DNA of 64,000 bases, taken from Saccostrea echinata. Its lineage: Eukaryota. This document shows, one piece after another, positions 22,295 to 64,000 of the stretch (its first letter is position 1; every line of letters begins with the position of its first letter). The stretch is taken from assembly GCF_033153115.1 (NCBI RefSeq), contig NW_026889757.1:9734001-9798000 (forward strand). The letters are read 5' to 3'. The translations under genes were made by a program, and so were the position numbers. The notes under the pieces were generated by a model. The model was not told where the DNA came from, searched no databases, and saw only the letters and a program-made list of their open reading frames with translations.

Positions 22295-23648
22295 GGGGTG
22301 TTGCCAAAACGCGGAACGGAAAACGGAACGGAAAGCGGAACGGAACGGAAAATTTGATGTCAAGTTTAGCACAGGTATAATTTGGACATAGGAATCAGTA
22401 TTTCTTATATTATACATGTAGTTCATATCTAATTAAAAGTTATCGTAACAGAGTGATTTATTCATATTTTTCCCCTCAAAACATGTGGCATATACATGCA
22501 ATGGTCAATAATTAGACTCACATCTCAATTATCTATCAGAATGTCTCATTTATCACTCATCCAAATCTGAATTTAAAAATGGCTTATTCGTCAAAGACAA
22601 AATCATCATTATTTATTATAAAAGGGGCAATGTTGTCTTAAAACAGACGGAGAGAAAGATAAATTCAGAGCATATATCAGGCCCGTAGAGCGCAGAGGGG
22701 AGGGGGGCCTGCTCCCCCTTTTTTCTGAGTATAGTTTTTGCTATAGTAAATTTTCCTTTAGATGCTGGTTGCCCCCCCCCCCCCTCCTCCCATTTTGATG
22801 TTGTAAGGTCGAGCATAGGCAAATTCCAGGATCTGGACAGTAAATTAGCTTTTTTTTTGCTTGACAGATAACTTGGTGGGATGTTGCAACCCCCCCAACC
22901 CTGACCCCACCCACTAGTGTAGTTTTTTTTGTGCTTGGCCCCCCACTTTTGAAACTGTTGCTATGGGCCTGTATATACCTTTGTGCTAGAGACAATGATC
23001 ACTGGCATTAAGAAAAAAAAAATAAAAAGGTTTATCACAACTACAGGAGTGTTGTTGCAATCAACGGGGATTTCAGAAAGAAAGCAGAGATGTATATGAC
23101 TAGATTGTTCAAAACGGCGCAAACTGATTGCACAGAATACCATAAAATGGATGGAGAAATTACATATTTTCGAGAAAATTTAGAGTTGTTATTTATATTT
23201 TAGTACTGGGGGGTTGCAGAGATGTACGTTATCCACGCTTAAGGTGTATGGGTATATATGCATTGAAAATTGTGGAATTTTTATTTTTCGCTCATAAGGC
23301 TCATAAGGATATCGAAAACCTGCCGTTCATATTGATCAGAGTGATCTTCAATAAAGTTTTTCCACTCATCCATATTTTACCACAACATGTTACATGTATA
23401 TATATTTTCTGTTCCGTTTTCCATACCCTTTGTCTATGTTTAGAGGTCTTCATGAATAAGAGAATGAACATGACTAAATTAACTCGCATTTAAATAATTA
23501 AGGATTAAATATGAAAAAATTATATGATGTATACTGTTTCTGGTATGATTTTTATATTTTAAGTGATTTAACCTGGAATCGTATGTTCCGTTTTCCGTTC
23601 CGTTCCACATTCCGTTCCGTTTTCCGTTCCGCGTTTTAGCAACACCCC
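22295..23648. mobile_element. Nested TIR DNA transposon (MULE- or hAT-like)
   Basis: TIRs GGGGTGTTGC.AAAACGCGGAACGGAAAACGGAACGGAA, with 8-10-bp TSD (C)ATTATTCT(G)/(C)ATAATTCT(G) inside one satellite unit. Confidence 0.8.
22678..22971. mobile_element. GC-rich MITE with 5-bp TSD (hAT5-like)
   Basis: CAGGCCCGTAG...CTATGGGCCTG flanked by TATAT on both sides. Confidence 0.65.
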
Positions 23649-26600
23649 ATAATTCTGTATATCAGTTTTTGATTTCAATGAACGGTGTTGCCATGGTTAC
23701 TAAAAATAGAAATTTCTGTAAAATACTTTCAAAATGCTACTCTTCCTACAATTTTGATCTGATTTCATTATAACTTGGCACACAAGTAGACTATACTAAG
23801 ATACATAATTCTGTTTATCGGTTTTTGATTTCAATGAACAGTGTTGCAATGGTTAGTAAAAATAGAAATTTCTGTGAAATACATTCAAAAAGCTACTCCT
23901 TCTACTGTTTTGATCTCTTTAAATATAACTTGACACATAAACTACACAAGATACATAATTCTGTGTATCCGTTTTTGATTTGGATGAACGGTGTTGCCAT
24001 GGTTACTAAAAATAAAAATTTTCTTGAAATACTTTCAAAATGCTACTCCTCCTACAGTTTTGGTCTGATTTTAGTCTAACTTAACACACGAGTAGACTAC
24101 ACTAAGATACATAATTCTTTTTACCAGTTTTTGATTTGGATGAACGGTGTTGCCATGGTTACTAAAAATAGAAATTTCCTTGAAATACTTTCAAAATGCT
24201 ACTCCTCCTACAGTTTTAATCTCATTTCAATATAACTTGGCACACAAATAGACTACACAAAGCTACATAATTCTGTGTATTTTTTTGATTTGGATGAACG
24301 GTGTTGCCATGGTTACTAAAAATAGAAATTTCCTTGAAATACTTTCAAAATGCTACTCCTCCTACATGTTTTGTCTGATTTCAGTATAACTCGGCATACA
24401 AGTAGACTACACTGAGATACATAATTGTCATTATTGCTTTTTGATTTTGTTGAATGATGTTGCCATGGTTACTTAAATCGAAATTTCTGTAATTTTTTTT
24501 TAAAAGGCTACTCCTCCAAGAGTTTTATTCTGATTGCAATAAATCTGGCCACAAAACAGACTAAACTAAGGATCATTATTCTATTCATTGCTGTTGCAAA
24601 GTTTCAAGTCTAAGTCCTTTATAAGTACAAGTAGAGCTACAGTCTCATCAGAGACTTCTGGTTCAATTAAGAGCTGTGTACTAGAAATGAACATGACACT
24701 TTTCCTGGAAGCGACCTTGACCTTGCCAAAATGACCTTGAATAAATATGAAGACACATCCCTGAATCATTAGCAATATTTGTTTCAGGTATGGGATTCGA
24801 ATGTTTAATCATTTCAAGATGTAGACAGGACACTAGGGCTGGGCAAAATATCGTTATTTCGGTATGTTGCAATCCAATGACAAAACATATCGTATTGCAA
24901 TACGATATACTGGCAAAATGCTTGAACTCGGGAAATCTATTATTAAATTTAAAAAAAAAAGTTGTCGGAAAGGTCTGTAGTTAAGCCAAACAGTAAGACA
25001 GTGCATAACTGTAATTAAATCAATATGATTTTTTCCTTTTTGGTTACTTAACACAGATATGTACATTGTGCATGTAAATGGAAGTTAATATAATAAGAAA
25101 AGGCCATTTTGATTTTCGTTCAAAATTTTGCAATACATATTGCAATACAGTTAAAAATATTGCAATATATTGCAAAACGAAAGTTCTGGCCAATACCCGT
25201 CTTACAGGACAAAATGTGTACATTTTTCAAAATTGACTATGAACTTGATCAAATGACCTTACGTCAAAATCATGACATACTTTAAGGTCATAATCAATTT
25301 TTCGATGAAGTATGAACATCCAATACTTTCCATTAGAAAATAAGACCAGGCACAAATTTAACATTTTTTTCCGCCAGTGGTCTTCATTTGCTAGAATTAT
25401 CATGGGTCAAGACCATGACACACTCTTTGCTCACATGCAATCTATCAAAAATGAACTTCTAAATGGTTCTCCATTACAAAGTTATGTGATCTGGACAGAT
25501 ATTTTAAACTTTTTCTTGTAGTGATCTTGATCTTGCTGGAATGACCTTGGGTTAAGGTTTGAACATACCACTGGGGCATAAATTTTTTTTGTCAAGCATG
25601 AACTTACAATATTTCTCCATAACGAAATGTGGTCAGGACACGAATTATACATTTTTTTTTATAAAGGATCTTGAACTTTATCATCTGACATTGAATGAAG
25701 AACATGATACACCTACATGTCTTAAACAATCTCTGTATGAAGTTTGATATCCGATATGCCTTCATAAAAAAGTTATAGACCAGACACGAATTTTACACTA
25801 TTTACTGCCAAAGACCTTGAACTAGCTGAAATGACCTTGGGTTAAACAAAGTCAAAATTCAACCTCAGATTATAAACAATCGTTTTATCAAGAATGAACT
25901 TGCAGTCTTTCCCCATTACAAAGTTATGACCCCATCATGATTGCACAGACAAAAGAATACAGAGACAGACAGACAAAGTGTTTCCTATATACCCCAGTCT
26001 TTGTTTGCTGGGTTATAACTATGGCACAAATGATTTGTTATCATGGCAGTCGATATTTTAATTGTTAGAATAATATTGCAATAACATCTTTTCATAAATT
26101 AAGATTAAGTTAAGTCTCGAGCTCCCCTAATAAGAAAATACTGAGCGTTTTTCTGCATATAAAATGTATGCTGAGTGTAGCCATGGTTACCACCTATACA
26201 GAGATATATTCCAAAGACTTTCTTTACATAATAAGTGGCAACAAGCTTTTTTGGTTTTTTTATCATAGGTAAATGGCCAATTTGGTTTTTTACGTGCTTG
26301 TGAAGGGTCAATAAAGATTCAAAGTAGCCGAAAATCTAAATTTTGTTGAAATCATCCTGTCTGTTACCATGACAACCAAGGCACATAGCAACCAAACTTT
26401 GATTGATATAAAATTCTCTTGTCAAACATTATATATGTAACTATTATAATGAGCAAAGTTTCATGAAAATCGGTGACCATGCGTGCCAAAAAAAAGTTCA
26501 AGTGGTTACAGAAAATTGCTCTTAACTCTCCAAAACATATTTTGGTTCTTATGTGTTCAAATGTTGTTGCCATGGGTTAAAAGTATAAAAATGGGTTAAA

Positions 26601-29526: not shown

Positions 29527-29910
29527 ATGGAATATTTTGGAAAATCAAAAAATGATGATTATCGAAGATCTCATGGACCAAATCCAGAATATTTTCCCGA
29601 TAATCCAGGAAGGAGAGAACTTCAGAGTTCCAGGAAAACAACTCCCAGTAATACATTTGAAAATTTGAATGGAAACGTAGACAAAATTTCTCAACAAACA
29701 AGATCTGTCGATGGAACAGTCAATGGGAGAAATCTGCCTATTGGTAGTTCAAATGTGTTTTATGGATATGGCGGTCCCTTCCGCTTTGATGACGACACTG
29801 ATGGAAGCTCTGAGACCTATTCCATGCAGGATTTCAAAATTCAACCATGGATGGATAAAATTACGGGTGGCACATTCAAAAAGAACTACATAGATCGAGT
29901 GTCATTTCGG
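29527..29910 (+). CDS. Gene A exon 1: cytoplasmic N-terminus
   Basis: MEYFGKS...YGYGGPF...FKIQPWMDKITGGTFKKNYIDRVSFR|gtaaga. No signal peptide. Homologous to 62867-63277. Confidence 0.88.
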
Positions 29911-32900: not shown

Positions 32901-35900
32901 GATGATCTTCTAATGGGCCTGCACGAAAATAAATTCTAAATGAGAAGATAAACTTTATCTTTCATAGTACTGTCAATTAGTGTTTTTTAATCTTATTTAT
33001 TGAACAAATGTAAAATGTATAATAGTTCATTGTAGTTAATTGCTGCAATATATGTCATTCCTTTAAAGCATTAATTTTTCATATACCATTATCATTTACC
33101 ATTACAATTATTGTAAATGAACATGAAAATGTTTCTGATTGTGATGTCAAATTGAACAGTCAAATATATCATATAAAAAAGAATAATATTGATATTTAAG
33201 CCCTCACTCCATCATAACCCCCAAAGTAGGATGGACGATATTCGGCAGTTTCGAAGCAAGGAAAGTCCAAGTGAAACTGATTCTAAGGGAAGTAAATCGA
33301 GAACTATTGTGACCATTTTGAGCATAATTTCGGGGATCATATTAATCGGATGCATAGCAGGAACACTTGCATATTTTCTGTCACAAAAAGGTATTCATTC
33401 AATGTTCAGTTCCAAATTTGTATTTTTCTTTATACAAATTATAAAAAGGAATGTTCCATTTAATAAATTTTTGACTGAAAATAACAATTATACATGTTTG
33501 TATGTAAATAACCTTCAGTGGACATATCAAAACATTGTTTTGTATACTTTAACATAAATTATTTTTATTTAATTGAAGAAAGTGGAGATACCTCAATAAA
33601 ATATTGTAAGTATAATTTTTTTAATGAATTTTTTTTAATGTATTCTCAAATTAAGCAATAATAATTCTATGTAAATGTACAAGCATTTTGTAAATATATA
33701 AGAGCTGACAGCGATGTTACTTGTTTAACAGATGTAGCAACCGGTGAGCTCAGTTTGAATGAAATCTTCTATGAAGAACTGTCGAATTCATCTTCACAAG
33801 AATTCAAGAATTTGAGCTCCAAATTCTGTGGCGCAGTACGTATATCAAATATTCTCTTTTTCCACCACACCTGAACACTCCAATTATAAATATTTGTATG
33901 AATTATGATAAGCGGTATGTTGATCCATTGGTAAAAGCTAGATTGAGAGAATTTTTGTTCTTATTTCTTTTTTAACAGGCACGCAGTACAGTCATTCTAC
34001 AAAAACATGACCAATTAAGAATTTTTTATGTCGCTTACAAATTTACCGTTGTAATATCTTAACTATAAATTTAAAGATCTATTTCAACTCTAAGACTTAA
34101 CATACACACATGGTTTTATAAATTCTTACCGATATATATGCAGTTCAAGTTTTGATATGAACATAATGTAAAGTTGAAAAACGTATTCCACTGCAAATCT
34201 TAATGTCGCTTCATTTATTTACAAATTTCAAGATGAAATTTTCAGCCGTTCCGAATAGCGTTCCGAATGGTTTGCAATGAATGTTTAAAAAAAGTTTTTT
34301 ATTCTATACAAAAAGAAATCATGCAAACTAAAAAATCGATTTACTTCCGTAACGATTTTGTTTTAAATTTCAAACACAGAATGAAGGTTTAAAAAAGAAC
34401 TGAAACATATCTGAAAGTGACCACGGAATCTAATATCATCGATTCTAATTGCGAGTCAGCTTTTTTTTTAGACAATTACATTTTCGACATAACAAAATTA
34501 ATTAGACAAAAACAGTTGTCTCTCTTAAAAAAATTAACTTCCGTAACGGTAATTCAGGAAAGTTTTAGCATTAAAAGTATAAAAAAAAAAATTTTTTTTT
34601 TGGGAGCGAAATGCTTCACACTTACGTTTTATATCCAGAAGCAAACTATTTCATCTATTGTCGAGAATTTTAACTATTATTGCTGGGAATTAACTTCCAT
34701 AACGATTAACTTCCGTAACGATATTCCCCGAAATTTTAACTTAATTTCGGATTACTGCGAGACTTCATGAATCATACTTAAGCGTTCTCTACTAAACATC
34801 AGAAACGAAATATTGGTCAAATTCAGCTTTCATTATTTAAAAAATAATTAGACTTGATCAGCATTAACTTCCGTAACATTACATTAAAATCAATGGAATA
34901 TTGAAATTGTTAAAAATATATTGAAGTTGATGAAAAAGTTAGCGATACCAGATTTGTGGACAATTCTTTTTTTTTTCAAGTTCACTGATATGTCCTTTAG
35001 TGAATTATGATGTTCATTTTGCTATTTGAAACAATTATTTTTTTCATGTTTTATACCCCCAAATTGGTCCATTTATCGTAGAACGACTGAGTATCGTTTT
35101 TGAAAAAAAAGGGAGGCAGAAAAAATATTTTACTATTTGACAACTTACCTGGAAAAGACTTTGAAAAGCAAAAACAAAAAAGTCCAGACTCGAAAATCCT
35201 ACTTCATGTTTTAAATTAACTACGATGTAACAGTAATTTTTTCTCTCTCCATTTATTCATTATTATTGCAAATCACACTGGATATATATACACGAACAAG
35301 AAATTTAGAACCAAAATTCAATCCGTAGGTATTATTTGTTTTAAATGTTATACAGTTTAATAATTATACCTGTTCAAGGTATGATATGAATAAATATGTG
35401 TGACATTGTATTCAGATATTAAGCACCCTGCATGATGCTGTAGGGTTAACTTATATACTGTTATAGAGAGAGCTTGGTCAGAGCCCCATCCCTGGTAGCT
35501 GTTTTATATATCACTTTTAATGTTATAGGTCTGGGAAATGTTTGTTACTGACACGTTCGGATTAGAAATTCGTGTTTCAAGTCTTCTTAACTTTTCTTGT
35601 CGACATTAATAATTTTTCTAAAGATTACAGAAGCATTGCAAAACTCCACAGAAAACGGGGATAAATACAGACTATGTGAAGTTAGAGATTTCAGGTTAGA
35701 ATCTTTTACATTTCCAAAAATCTTAAGTTCAAGATAAAAGACAATTAGAATTCTCCTAGCAGAGCCATTGTGATTTTTAGTGGGATATTGCTTTATAAAT
35801 ATGTTAAATTTATGAAATATTGCCACAAATGTACGATTATAATTATGGCTCCGATTAAATGCTACTTCCACAGAAACGGGAGCATAATAGTTCGATTCAA

Positions 35901-38900
35901 AGTGTATTACGTTTACACGGCCACTGTCACTATCACCAATGAGACGGTTGAGAAGGATCTGAATAACTCTTTAACATCCAAAGATGCCAATCTCGCACAG
36001 CTTTCAACTTTAGTTATTATAAAAGTGACTTTGAAAATCACAGTCGAAGTGGAGACTTTCCGAAAAGAAAACGATCCTGTTGCAACCAATTCATTACCTT
36101 CTACAACTCCATCCCCAACAACAAAAGCAACTACTATACCGTCAACAGAAAGCACAGGAAGCATATTTTCTTCAGAACCCTCAACTGATGCTACAACAGG
36201 AACAAATATAACAAGAGTAACCACTACAACAACACCGACCACAACAACACCGGCCACAACAACAATACCGATCAGTACAATAACATCGACAACTTCAACA
36301 CCAACCACAACAACAACATCGACCGGTACAACATTAACCACTTTAACAACACCTTCCACCATTACAACACAAATAACTACAAAATCGACACATACAACAA
36401 CACAAACCACTACAACAACAGCAACGGCAGCTACAACACCGTCCACTACAACAACACCGTCCACTACAACAACAACGCCGTCCACTACAGCAACACCGGC
36501 CACTACAACAACACCGACCGCTTCAGCAACTCAATTGACCACAACAACAGCAGCTACCACCACCACAACACCGACCAGTTCAACAATGCCCACCACTACA
36601 ACAACATCTACTACTACATCACCACCCTCTTCAATGATAACGACCAATACAACAACACAGATCACTACAACACTGACTACTACTACAACACCGACCTCTA
36701 CAACAAGACCAACCACTTCTACAACACCGATCACTACGACAACAGCAGCATATATAACAACACCAATGACTGCAACAACAGAGAACACAAACAGTAGTAA
36801 ACTACCGAGGACGACGGAAACATTGGACACCACAACCGAAGGCACAAAATTGAACATTACAACAACAACAATGACAAACGAAAACACATCTGACAGTGAA
36901 ACGCAAACGTCTTCGTCAAACACTGCGATGTCAACTGAAAGAATGACACTAACTACAACTACAGATAGTACAACACTGGTAACCACTGAAACAGAAATCA
37001 TGACAGAAAAAACAATACCGGTGACAGCTAAAACAGAAAGGACGACAGAAAGTTCAATACCGGCAACACTAAACTCAACTGAGAGTATAAAGCCAACGAC
37101 TACAACAGTAGAAGATATCATGACTTCCACCGAAGGAACAACGCTATCGATGACAATCACAGCAGAAAGAAAAATAGATACGGCATCACCAGACGAGACT
37201 TCAAAGCCGACGACTACAACAGAAACAAAAAGTACAACAGACAGTACAACACCATTGACTTCTTTGGCATCATCAACCGACAGTACAATAACACAGACTT
37301 CAATAGCAACAGTAAGCACCGTCTCTACGGAGCCATCAACGAAAAGTACAACATCAGAATCGACATCAAAAATTGAAAGCTCAACATCTACAGAAATGTC
37401 AACCAACAGTACAAAACTAACAACGCCAACAACAGAGATCATTACATCTAAAGTACCAACAACCAATAATACAGATCAATCGACTTCAATAACAACTGAT
37501 AGCATAACATCTTTTGCATCACCTAGTGCTACATCAAAAATAAACCAAACAACTTCAGAAAGCACAACCGAAAGCACTACAGAAAATATGTCACAAATAT
37601 CTACAACTGTGTCAGCAGATAGCACAACTCGCGTTATAACACCAACAATGGAGACGACTTCTAGGACACAGGAATCAACGCAATGTAACGATTGTGTCAC
37701 AGATTCTACAGTAGACACAACAGCTTCATCAGACTTTACAGTTCAAAGTACACTTGAAACAACTGCTGCTGTAGTCATGGAATATACAGCAGGTTTGTTT
37801 TCATTGATTGGTATAAAGGTCACTTAAATTATACTGTTTTCTCTAAAAGGCAATTTTTAAAAGGAATCTTCTTATGTGTTTATCTTGTTAAATTCATACT
37901 TTACTATTCATGATTCTTACGTTTGTAGTGCCGTTATTTTGTTAATCGCCATAGATATTCATAATCAAGGTAACCCCTGATAATTACTGTACAATTTGTT
38001 GATTCCATGAGATAATAATTTTTATATGCACCAGCTCTTGTGTGGTAATATTTACTCTGCGTCAATCTTACATCCTAATAATATAGTAACCTATAGTTAT
38101 GATTTAAATTCTTCTGTCACATGTGGTCCATTTTTAATAACTTTAATTTTCGAAGAACTTACATCTTTGTCCTCCATAACTGTTCAACACAAAAGATAAA
38201 CAAAACAAACCATTTAATACATAATGTAAATTAAAACTTAAACTTTCAACAATTCTTGAAAGGCATGCGACAAATGATTAAATAGGACTTTTTGTTTTGA
38301 ATATAATTTATTATAATGTTTTTTCTTTGTTATCGTCTCAGACGTCAGAGTCCCGAGGATCACTGCAATCGTCGGGGAAACTACTACAGCACAAGGATGT
38401 ATAGTCATCCCACACGGCGAGTGGCTGCATGTAGATCTATCAATCGATTATAACAGTTCATCACACGTCATTGCAAAGTTGGATCACAACAAAATATTTC
38501 AAAAACCGACTTCTGTTGACAGATTTAACGGTAGCATTGACATGAATGGTGATGATATTGTTGTTACATTAACGGTTGATTTAACATCACCAAAATCAGA
38601 CTTTTGCACATGGGACGGCCGATACATCGTCACATGCTCCGTGATTATGAATGATACAATGCAAACCAGACAAACTAATGGGAGTCAGATTTCAATTACA
38701 GGTAATAACTTCTTTTAAGTGGGAAGGGATATGCATTACGATATCGCTAACTATAACAAAGCAGACTGTGGGAAGTTTTCTACCGAGAGATGATGACTGA
38801 AATATTTTGGGCCAAAAGTAGACCAATTACGTCAATATAACCAGACTAGTTCATATTAATTCTCAAAAGTTTGAATCTTTTATATACGGTATAGCGGTAT

Positions 38901-62866: not shown

Positions 62867-63277
62867 ATGGAATCTTTAGGTAAGTCGGGAAAAGTCGATT
62901 TTCAATCTTTTCGTCACACGAATACAGAAGATTCCGTCGGTAGGTCAAGGATATATGAATATCGAAGTTCTCGTCGGACACCTACGGATTCCTTTGGTAA
63001 TTCAGCAGGGAACGGATTTCGGGATTCCTCACAAAGTAGACCAGTGCATTCATTTGAAGGACCCTCCAATAACAGTGGAACCAATGTAAAGCCTCCTCGG
63101 AGTAGTGTTTACTATGGATATGGTGGTCCTTTTTCTTTAGATGACGATTTTGACAGAAGGTCGGATAGTACACAGATGTCGTCTGATTCTATTAGAAATT
63201 TTAAAATCCAACCTTGGATGACAAAAATTACTGGGGGAACATTCAAGAGGGACTACATTGACCGTATTTCATTACGG
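62867..63277 (+). CDS. Gene B (paralog of gene A) exon 1: cytoplasmic N-terminus
   Basis: MESLGKS...YGYGGPF...FKIQPWMTKITGGTFKRDYIDRISLR|gtaaga. Same intron position and phase as gene A. Confidence 0.88.
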
Positions 63278-63681
63278 GTAAGAATAAAAGAATCCATTCG
63301 TTTTTATGATTATGCTCATTTTGATACCTTAATGGTCAATTTCAAACTACACAACCAAAGCATAACATGTTGTCGCATTTACAAACGCGTCTCAATTATT
63401 CCGCTCGTTAAACCATTTTGTTTTCAACTGGTGAAATATGGAAAGTATTTGACATTAAAGCAAGTCCAAAAATTTTTTTAATAGAGAGGGTCGAAAAAAC
63501 CTTTTCCAATAAACAATAATACAATTAACTGATGTGGTTCCTCTCTAATTCCGTCACCATACTTTTGAGTGTTTCGTCTAGGAAAAAAATTATGACGTTT
63601 TTCTTCATATTATGTTGACATCTTTTCATCATTGAAATCAAAACCTCCTTGCTCTATAAATGGATTTTCTTTAATTTTTAG

Positions 63682-63880
63682 CCAACACTACAGCATGACA
63701 CCACAATACTCTGGCAAGACACTCGACAGCTTACAGAAGCAGATGACAGGGAGCCCATTAGAGGGAACTGTAATGAAGAAATTCTTGGTCGAACCACCTT
63801 AACTATCATCTTTATAATTCTTGGGGTGATTTTAGTTGGTATTGTTGGAGCTGTCATTGCATGGTTTTTAGCGATGAAGG
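63682..63880 (+). CDS. Gene B exon 2: TM signal anchor; gene continues beyond the window
   Basis: tag|PTLQH...GRTTLTIIFIILGVILVGIVGAVIAWFLAMK|gtaaaa. Phase 0-1, as in gene A exon 2. Confidence 0.85.
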
Positions 63881-64000
63881 GTAAAACTTTTGTACATATA
63901 TTTAAAACATTTTTTGGATATTAAACGTTATTCTAGACTACGTCATCTATTACTTTTTAACGAATTAAATAAATAATGGGTAAAAAAACAACAACACAAT

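What the first reader, a model, noticed from the sequence alone, without database searches (positions are those of the whole stretch)
62867..63880. Tandem gene cluster: a second family member starts 15 kb downstream
Gene B has the same exon 1/2 layout (R|P phase-0 intron, TM exon ending in phase 1), a similar start (MExxGKS) and the conserved tail, but an otherwise diverged sequence. This suggests an old tandem array in which a constant tail may be paired with variable ectodomains, as in diversified innate receptor clusters (inference).
Basis: partly seen in the sequence, partly recalled or inferred. Interest (0 to 1): 0.7.

Follow-up and report, generated by a model that had tools for sequence, protein, structure and literature searches.

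The report
Oyster membrane mucin with chitin-binding tip
This is the start of an intact second copy of an oyster gene for a predicted cell-surface protein with a mucus-like stalk, antibody-like domains and chitin-binding-type tips, which likely ties the cell surface to chitin; its inner tail is no more conserved than its outer domains, so the pair does not fit the proposed "fixed tail, variable head" immune array.

Summary
Gene B starts at 62867, 14,996 bases after gene A's stop. It has the stated exon 1/2 layout and runs past the window as an intact 16-exon gene of 1,564 aa. Its intron 1 is skipped exactly in a contig from a related organism. B and A (21 exons, 2,258 aa) encode type II membrane proteins: tail, TM, SEA, mucin stalk, Ig-like modules and CBM14-fold modules. 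B lacks one block of five phase-1 exons.

The duplication is old and module number varies, but the tail is not constant: 47% identity against 44% for the ectodomain, p=0.54. Only a 26-residue motif is well kept (81%). Three tail-bearing genes were found in the genome, and none of 7 tails scanned has an ITIM or ITAM.

Relatives are annotated in Magallana and Ostrea under uninformative names, and my searches found no paper on them. In M. gigas the pattern is reversed: paralogs share 82-99% identical distal Ig modules but only 35-41% identical tails. The likeliest role is a sheddable epithelial chitin tether, like a membrane-anchored VCBP (inferred).

The parts
62867..63277 (+). Gene B exon 1: predicted cytoplasmic N-terminal tail, 137 codons, phase-0 donor
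   Evidence: 52% identical to A exon 1; covered by contigs of runs X1 and X3
63200..63277 (+). Conserved 26-residue tail motif of unknown function, shared by A, B, F and other oysters' genes
   Evidence: 81% A/B; alignments; no Pfam match
63278..63681 (+). Intron 1 of gene B, 404 nt, GT-AG, phase 0
   Evidence: sequence; joint skipping 404 bases GT..AG in a contig of run X3
63682..63880 (+). Gene B exon 2: juxtamembrane stretch and the single predicted TM helix (about 63805-63861, protein residues 179-197), ends in phase 1
   Evidence: mean hydropathy 3.22, the only 19-residue window of B above 2
63881..64000 (+). Start of intron 2 of gene B. The gene goes on beyond the window's end, with exons 3-16 at G000:C8:9798106-9812201: 27-nt micro-exon, three SEA exons, mucin stalk of about 283 aa, Ig-like x4, internal CBM14-fold module, linker, Ig-like x3, terminal CBM14
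29527..29910 (+). Gene A exon 1 (tail, 128 codons)
33201..35694 (+). Gene A exons 2-5: TM exon 33201-33390, micro-exon 33579-33605, SEA exons 33732-33835 and 35624-35694
   Evidence: weak Pfam SEA match on exon 4
35874..37792 (+). Gene A exon 6: end of SEA with the GSIIV strand, then a mucin stalk of about 574 aa (56% Thr+Ser)
38342..42174 (+). Gene A exons 7-13: Ig-like x4, internal Cys module, linker, Ig-like; all phase 1-1 and all present in B
   Evidence: exon 9 passes Pfam V-set, 26.2 against cut-off 26
42907..46101 (+). Gene A exons 14-18: Ig-like x3, internal Cys module, linker; the block that gene B lacks
   Evidence: modules 14-17 present in the Magallana and Ostrea full-length relatives
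46407..47871 (+). Gene A exons 19-21: Ig-like x2, terminal CBM14 and stop
   Evidence: Pfam CBM_14 45.7 bits against cut-off 22.1

Best explanation
The finding is the 5' end of an intact old tandem paralog (gene B) of gene A; both encode a predicted type II membrane protein (inner tail, one TM helix, SEA domain, mucin stalk, Ig-like modules, CBM14-fold modules) that likely tethers an epithelial surface to chitin-containing mucus, matrix or microbes. Shown: the gene structure, the paralogy, the absence in B of five phase-1 exons, and splicing of intron 1 in related material. Predicted: the topology and the Ig and CBM14 folds. Inferred mechanism: the glycosylated stalk holds the Ig-CBM14 head away from the membrane; the CBM14 modules bind chitin or a similar ligand; the SEA domain self-cleaves at Gly-Ser so that the head can be shed; the conserved tail motif docks an unknown trafficking or cytoskeletal partner rather than signalling through tyrosines. 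Family members differ because symmetric phase-1 exons are gained and lost as blocks, not through a diversification mechanism.
For: B has 16 exons and A 21, all with AG/GT ends, compatible phases and no internal stop. Intron 1 is skipped exactly in a contig. The terminal exon passes Pfam CBM_14 in both genes (30.6 and 45.7 bits, cut-off 22.1). 4 of 7 Ig-like exons of B and 5 of 10 of A match Ig families, 1 of these 17 above cut-off. The full-length M. gigas relative P0007 passes SEA, I-set, Ig_3, Ig_2, V-set and CBM_14 cut-offs. A model of B exon 11 (pLDDT 80) has as its 7 best of 48,161 chains small Cys-rich chitin-binding-type folds: EHEP Z 6.8, Avr4 5.8, Der p 23 5.2, CHIT1 CBM14 5.1, tachycitin 4.0 (same picture; grouping them as the CBM14 fold is partly recalled). 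A model of an O. edulis relative matches two-domain Ig chains such as CD200R/CD200 and BTN3 (E about 1e-8). The stalks are 44% and 56% Thr+Ser, and each gene has one TM. The SEA strand is GSIIV in A and GSIDV in B; SEA cleavage at GSVVV-like motifs is described in PMC2958558 (passages). VCBP-C binds gut chitin through its CBD (PMC7947342, passages). The tail is no more conserved than the ectodomain. pN/pS among related copies on C1 is 0.45-0.55.
Against: No binding, tissue or localisation data exist here. Fold likeness does not show chitin binding: the Z-scores are under 8, and (recalled) EHEP binds tannins and Der p 23 is reported not to bind chitin. None of 3 internal Cys modules matched Pfam. 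B's SEA strand has Asp in a normally aliphatic place, so cleavage is unsure. The 524-aa model is poor overall (pLDDT 55.5). The RNA nature of the laid runs is a guess and only the stretch with exons 1-3 was laid. Between M. gigas and M. angulata the CBM modules change fastest (62-78% against 85-98% for Ig and 95-100% for tail, TM and SEA), and M. gigas paralogs look homogenised in the ectodomain; both fit a recognition role under selection.
Confidence: 0.6

Rival explanations
1. One reading: a diversified innate-receptor cluster in which one constant signalling tail is paired with variable ectodomains.
For: The 26-residue tail motif is kept in A, B and F, whose ectodomains hold 10, 7 and 2 Ig-like modules. 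Between M. gigas and M. angulata the tail is 95% identical while CBMs are 62-78%. Ig plus CBM14 recalls the polymorphic VCBPs (PMC2632668, abstract).
Against: Tail 47% against ectodomain 44%, p=0.54. Only three tail-bearing genes were found. Gene G has a related ectodomain with a 22-codon candidate first exon and no motif. 0 of 7 tails has an ITIM or ITAM. pN/pS is 0.45-0.55 among G copies. The pattern is reversed in M. gigas.
Confidence: 0.12
2. Paired-receptor-like system: paralogs keep near-identical ligand-binding heads by gene conversion or unequal crossing-over while their tails differ, so one ligand has different effects inside the cell.
For: M. gigas P0022 and P0025 lie on one contig and share tail 35%, TM exon 35%, SEA 63%, Ig7 55%, but later Ig modules 84-99%. 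A separately annotated model, P0056, repeats P0022 at 89-100% in all 7 regions, so a one-off chimeric model is less likely. Ectodomains group by genus with 100/98-100 support. Homogenised binding domains with different tails are described for vertebrate paired receptors (PMC5701461, PMC3210942; search listing and start of abstracts only).
Against: It does not apply to the pair in this window: A/B Ig exons are 32-56% identical and no conversion tract is seen. No opposing signalling motifs. It rests on automated protein models with no DNA checked. Ordinary unequal crossing-over in a repeat-built gene gives the same pattern.
Confidence: 0.12
3. Shell or periostracum protein: a mantle-cell anchor that holds the chitin scaffold during shell formation.
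For: CBD and Ig-like domains occur together in a C. gigas shell matrix protein (PMC5379566, passage). The relative G lies about 10 kb from a tyrosinase-like gene (name recalled from the translation).
Against: The shell protein in that paper has Lam-G, and no SEA, mucin or TM is mentioned in the passage seen. No mantle expression or shell-proteome evidence was found. The neighbourhood of G says little about A and B.
Confidence: 0.14
4. Gene B is a decaying duplicate or a two-exon remnant.
For: It lacks five exons that A has, four of which are matched in the full-length relatives, and contig depth in the nearest run is low (about 3).
Against: 16 exons stay open and in phase at 32-56% identity to A, which needs long selection, and intron 1 is spliced in related material.
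Confidence: 0.02

Closest known systems
Unnamed oyster proteins: M. gigas LOC105324798 (XP_034330428-439), LOC105324043 (XP_034330442.1; UniRef A0A8W8IX23), LOC105341314, XP_065925082.1; M. angulata XP_052702942.1; O. edulis XP_056005953.1, XP_056006656.1
   Same: TM, SEA, mucin, Ig-like and CBM14 modules in the same order; most also have the same tail motif and the same Arg|Pro junction.
   Different: Named only 'uncharacterized', 'mucin-5AC', 'mucin-22-like' or 'serine-rich adhesin-like'. Most carry extra copies of modules 7-8 or 14-17; B is shorter. Identity to A and B is about 28-70% per module.
[quoted passage not shown]
   Same: Ig domains followed by a C-terminal chitin-binding domain; some genes clustered (PMC2632668 abstract; PMC7947342 passages).
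   Different: VCBPs are secreted, with a leader, two V domains and one CBD. A and B have an N-terminal tail, a TM anchor, SEA, a mucin stalk, 7-10 Ig-like modules and 2-3 CBM-type modules. Homology was not shown; the likeness is one of architecture.
SEA-containing transmembrane mucins (MUC1 type)
   Same: SEA domain with a GSxxV strand next to a Thr/Ser-rich stalk.
   Different: MUC1-type mucins are type I with a C-terminal tail (recalled); here the order is reversed and the far end carries Ig and CBM14 modules.
Type II transmembrane serine proteases (enteropeptidase, matriptase, HAT/DESC)
   Same: N-terminal cytoplasmic tail, type II TM, then SEA (PMC2958558 passages).
   Different: No trypsin domain; the chain ends in CBM14.

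Membership tests
VCBP | Leader peptide, secreted, no membrane anchor | tested here: not met
   Polar N-terminal 178 residues; single strongly hydrophobic segment at 179-197
VCBP | Two tandem V-type Ig domains only | tested here: not met
   7 Ig-like exons in B and 10 in A; mixed V-set, C2-set and Ig_2 matches, mostly under cut-off
VCBP | C-terminal chitin-binding domain (CBM14) | tested here: met
   Pfam CBM_14 above cut-off in the last exon of both genes
VCBP | Gut expression, chitin and microbe binding | not testable with these tools
   No tissue labels or binding data; runs are coded contigs
SEA transmembrane mucin (MUC1 type) | SEA domain with Gly-Ser cleavage strand | tested here: inconclusive
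   Relative P0007 passes Pfam SEA; A's SEA exons match weakly and B's not at all, being split over three exons; A has GSIIV, B has GSIDV
SEA transmembrane mucin (MUC1 type) | Thr/Ser/Pro-rich stalk | tested here: met
   Thr+Ser 44% over 283 aa in B, 56% over 574 aa in A
SEA transmembrane mucin (MUC1 type) | Type I topology with C-terminal tail (feature recalled) | tested here: not met
   TM lies N-terminal to SEA; no hydrophobic segment near the C-terminus
Type II transmembrane serine protease | N-terminal tail, type II TM, SEA | tested here: met
   (topology predicted from hydropathy)
Type II transmembrane serine protease | C-terminal trypsin-like domain | tested here: not met
   No protease match among 30 exon translations or in P0007; stop follows CBM14
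Diversified innate receptor cluster | Tail more conserved than ectodomain | tested here: not met
   74/158 against 400/906, p=0.54
Diversified innate receptor cluster | Many paralogs in one array | tested here: not met
   Two full genes in 582 kb; three tail-bearing genes in the genome, a lower bound
Diversified innate receptor cluster | ITIM, ITAM or similar signalling motif | tested here: not met
   0 of 7 tails match ITIM or ITAM patterns; A alone has one NPxY
Diversified innate receptor cluster | Positive selection on binding domains | tested here: inconclusive
   pN/pS 0.45 and 0.55 for the C1 copies; not computed for A/B, which are too diverged; CBMs change fastest between Magallana species
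Diversified innate receptor cluster | Copy-number or presence/absence variation between individuals | not testable with these tools
   One assembly only

The most novel reading that the evidence does not exclude
An undescribed oyster family of membrane-anchored, sheddable Ig-CBM14 chitin receptors on a type II SEA-mucin stalk, whose paralogs act as invertebrate paired receptors: in Magallana the binding heads are homogenised (82-99%) while the tails diverge (35-41%), and a new non-tyrosine tail motif sets the output.
Probability: 0.15. Interest if true: 0.7.

Novelty: new variant of a known kind. Interest (0 to 1): 0.38.

Why it matters
The tandem copy itself is ordinary. The protein layout is less so: it joins the N-terminal half of a type II SEA membrane protein to a VCBP-like Ig plus CBM14 head, and my ten paper searches found no description of it. 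If it binds chitin at an epithelial surface, it is a testable mollusc counterpart of the chitin-mucus barrier studied in Ciona, or a mantle anchor for shell chitin. The 26-residue tail motif has no Pfam match and the tail profile had only 5 hits among 1.84 billion representatives, so it is a clean bait for a partner search. The reversed conservation pattern in M. gigas can be checked with existing Pacific oyster data.

Tried and rejected
Pseudogene or two-exon remnant: rejected. Constant tail: rejected. More full copies near A/B: none in 582 kb by profile search, none in the 15-kb gap or the upstream part of the window. Recent A/B gene conversion: no tract. Calling P0007 'the ortholog of B': dropped; later modules favour B but the two trees disagree and support is weak. 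Search with B exon 1 among longer proteins: 0 of 212 candidates, weak evidence since relatives turned up by another route. ESM Atlas with P0048: best score 0.81, a lead only, mostly Ig families. PDB sequence search with the internal Cys modules: one hit at E 0.3. Tail tree: 1 of 9 inner branches well supported, not used for order of events. First exons of neighbours C, D and E: not identified. My coordinates for one exon of C snapped to the wrong acceptor; read correctly it is open. Sequencing runs: no holder on record as RNA. Run X2 covered only 35 intronic bases and was ignored. Paper searches found no paper on this architecture or on five locus or protein ids; main texts only, so supplementary expression tables may list these loci. 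No complex was predicted, as there is no candidate partner.

Full report
Setting. The window is G000:C8:9734001-9798000 of a 923-Mb genome in 425 contigs. All relatives with a species name are oysters. An earlier, unchecked note calls the genome a black-lip rock oyster. Module identities of mostly 40-60% to both Magallana and Ostrea fit a third genus.

1. The observation. Gene B exon 1 is 62867-63277, intron 1 is 63278-63681 and exon 2 is 63682-63880. Exon 1 ends in Arg at phase 0, exon 2 starts with Pro and ends in phase 1, exactly as in gene A (29527-29910, 33201-33390). B's ATG lies 14,996 bases after A's stop. None of 1000 shuffles reached the A/B score for exon 1 or exon 2, and 1 of 1000 did for the first 12 residues. 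On L003:800-2800, a 1,462-base contig of run X3 (under 90% alike) skips exactly 404 bases GT..AG, and its loose end resembles exon 3. A contig of run X1 (95-99% alike) leaves exon 1 and reads on as the first codons of exon 2. Run X2 gave only 35 intronic bases. The tool marks all three runs as guessed RNA.

2. What gene B is. I read 120 kb downstream and checked exons one by one. B has 16 exons, 1,564 aa, ending at C8:9812201; A has 21 exons, 2,258 aa. All splice ends are AG/GT, phases agree, and no exon has an internal stop. The order is tail, TM, 27-nt micro-exon, SEA over three exons, Thr/Ser-rich stalk, then phase 1-1 exons for Ig-like and Cys-rich modules. Each gene has one strongly hydrophobic segment, in exon 2, so the N-terminus is predicted to be inside the cell.

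Pfam on 30 exon translations: the last exon passes CBM_14 in both genes; 4 of 7 Ig-like exons of B and 5 of 10 of A match Ig families, one above cut-off; 0 of 3 internal Cys modules match; tail and TM exons match nothing. The full-length M. gigas relative P0007 passes SEA, four Ig families and CBM_14. The internal Cys modules align to the terminal ones (hhalign 85.7%). A model of B exon 11 (pLDDT 79.9) has chitin-binding-type folds as its 7 best rows of 48,161 chains, Z 4.0-6.8; Foldseek gave no hit at E 0.001 but the same leaders. A partly confident model of O. edulis P0048 (pLDDT 55.5) matches two-domain Ig chains.

B lacks A's exons 14-18 (three Ig-like, one Cys module, one linker). The six Magallana and Ostrea proteins and P0007 all carry modules 14-17, so loss in B is the simpler reading. 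Because all these exons are phase 1-1, the loss keeps the frame.

3. Is the tail constant? No. Global A/B identity is 52% for exon 1, 32% for exon 2, 48-56% for SEA and 32-56% for the nine shared ectodomain exons. The whole tail is 74/158 against 400/906 for the pooled ectodomain (p=0.54); exon 1 alone is 65/124 (p=0.08). Only the last 26 residues of exon 1 stand out (21/26). That motif is rare: a profile of the two tails found 5 proteins among 1.84 billion, and it recurs in the oyster full-length models. None of 7 tails has an ITIM or ITAM pattern.

4. Size and age of the family. Profiles of A/B exons over 582 kb found only A and B. Own-genome searches add gene F, 4.7 Mb away, with the tail motif and only two Ig-like exons, and gene G on C1 with a related ectodomain, no motif and two partial copies. 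These counts are lower bounds. Three distantly related TM-SEA-mucin genes follow B on the other strand; C and D have no Ig or CBM exon, and none was found for E. A and B share DNA only in exons, at 65-80%. In trees rooted on G (WAG+G4; P0022 left out of the last-unit tree, P0024 and P0047 out of the first-unit tree), Magallana and Ostrea copies each form a clade (100/98-100). A and B branch near the base: A outermost in one tree (83/77), B in the other (82/57). The duplication is therefore probably about as old as these genera; its order is unresolved. Among the C1 copies pN/pS is 0.45 and 0.55.

5. Results that cut the other way. In M. gigas, P0022 and P0025 on one contig share tail 35%, TM exon 35%, SEA 63%, Ig7 55%, later Ig modules 84-99% and CBMs 75-84%. 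P0056, from another annotation, repeats P0022 in all 7 regions compared (89-100%), and P0007 has a third tail. It rests on automated models. Also, between M. gigas and M. angulata the CBMs change fastest, which leaves room for selection on ligand binding.

6. How it most likely works. Shown: gene structure, paralogy, the missing block, splicing of intron 1 in related material. Predicted: type II topology, Ig and CBM14 folds. Inferred: an O-glycosylated stalk holds an Ig-CBM14 head away from an epithelial surface, where it binds chitin in mucus, matrix or microbes; the SEA domain may self-cleave at Gly-Ser, as described for mucins and enteropeptidase (PMC2958558, passages), allowing shedding; the tail motif docks an unknown partner. 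The nearest working model is VCBP-C, which binds gut chitin by its CBD and opsonises bacteria (PMC7947342, passages).

7. Comparison and novelty. It works like a membrane-anchored VCBP but fails VCBP membership (not secreted, wrong module number). It also fails as a MUC1-type mucin (reversed topology) and as a type II protease (no protease domain). The relatives are in RefSeq and UniRef under uninformative names. Ten searches of main texts found no paper on the architecture or on five ids; supplements were not searched. Papers seen: PMC2632668 (abstract and outline); PMC7947342, PMC2958558, PMC5379566, PMC5877582 and bioRxiv 10.64898/2026.05.15.723513 (passages); the last two held nothing specific. 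Earlier scan notes had nothing near this place or on this sequence; one lists another cluster with variable domain number in this genome (unchecked).

Verdict. Real, intact, old tandem paralog; the 'constant tail, variable head' reading is not supported for this pair. The family layout seems undescribed and is testable. Novelty: new variant of a known kind. Interest 0.38.

Noticed in passing
G000:C8:9817400-9822520 (L005), 9858430-9861180 (L009), 9902500-9917070 (L013-L015), all minus strand: Three more TM-SEA-mucin genes (C, D, E) follow B on the other strand. C and D share the exon phases of A/B, stop after the stalk, and have no Ig, CBM or tail motif; their SEA is about 17-29% identical to A/B and 47% to each other (C's values were computed with two misread exons and are rough). 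E has a 3,850-codon open frame with about 18 copies of a 552-base unit.
   Followed up: partly
G000:C8:5079729-5073500 (L057, L083), minus strand: Gene F, 4.7 Mb away: same tail motif, TM exon, 27-nt micro-exon and SEA exons, a stalk of about 1,000 aa, two Ig-like exons, then a stop.
   Followed up: partly
G000:C1:52896500-52883900 and 52837200-52815600 (L059-L067), minus strand: Gene G: short candidate first exon without the motif, TM, SEA, mucin, Ig x4, Cys module, Ig x2, terminal Cys module. Two partial copies (97-98% DNA identity over about 5.5 kb each) lie downstream with a LINE-like piece between them.
   Followed up: partly
G000:C1:52871490-52874230 (L065): Tyrosinase-like exons (name recalled from the translation) between gene G and its partial copies.
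   Followed up: no
Proteins P0007, P0022, P0024, P0025, P0056 (M. gigas): Paralogs with three distinct tails (35-55% identical) share later Ig modules at 82-99%, with identity rising from the N- to the C-terminal side.
   Followed up: partly
Proteins P0025 and P0023: Between M. gigas and M. angulata the CBM modules are the least conserved parts (78% and 62%) while TM and SEA are 100%.
   Followed up: partly
window 41455-41593: A run of 139 N lies inside intron 12 of gene A; a small hidden exon cannot be excluded.
   Followed up: no
window 6521-7547 and 8627-9576: Fragments of reverse-transcriptase-like frames of a repeat that recurs around these loci (name recalled).
   Followed up: no
window 23648-24582: Tandem array of a 156-base unit, 6.1 copies, 83% alike.
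   Followed up: no
G000:C8:9730994-9732055 and 10037837-10038688: Flanking genes look like an FtsJ-type tRNA methyltransferase and a SoxB HMG-box factor (recalled from translations); useful as synteny anchors.
   Followed up: no
G000:C8:9889260-9894460 (L012), minus strand: Fragmented LTR-retrotransposon-like frames between genes D and E (name recalled).
   Followed up: no
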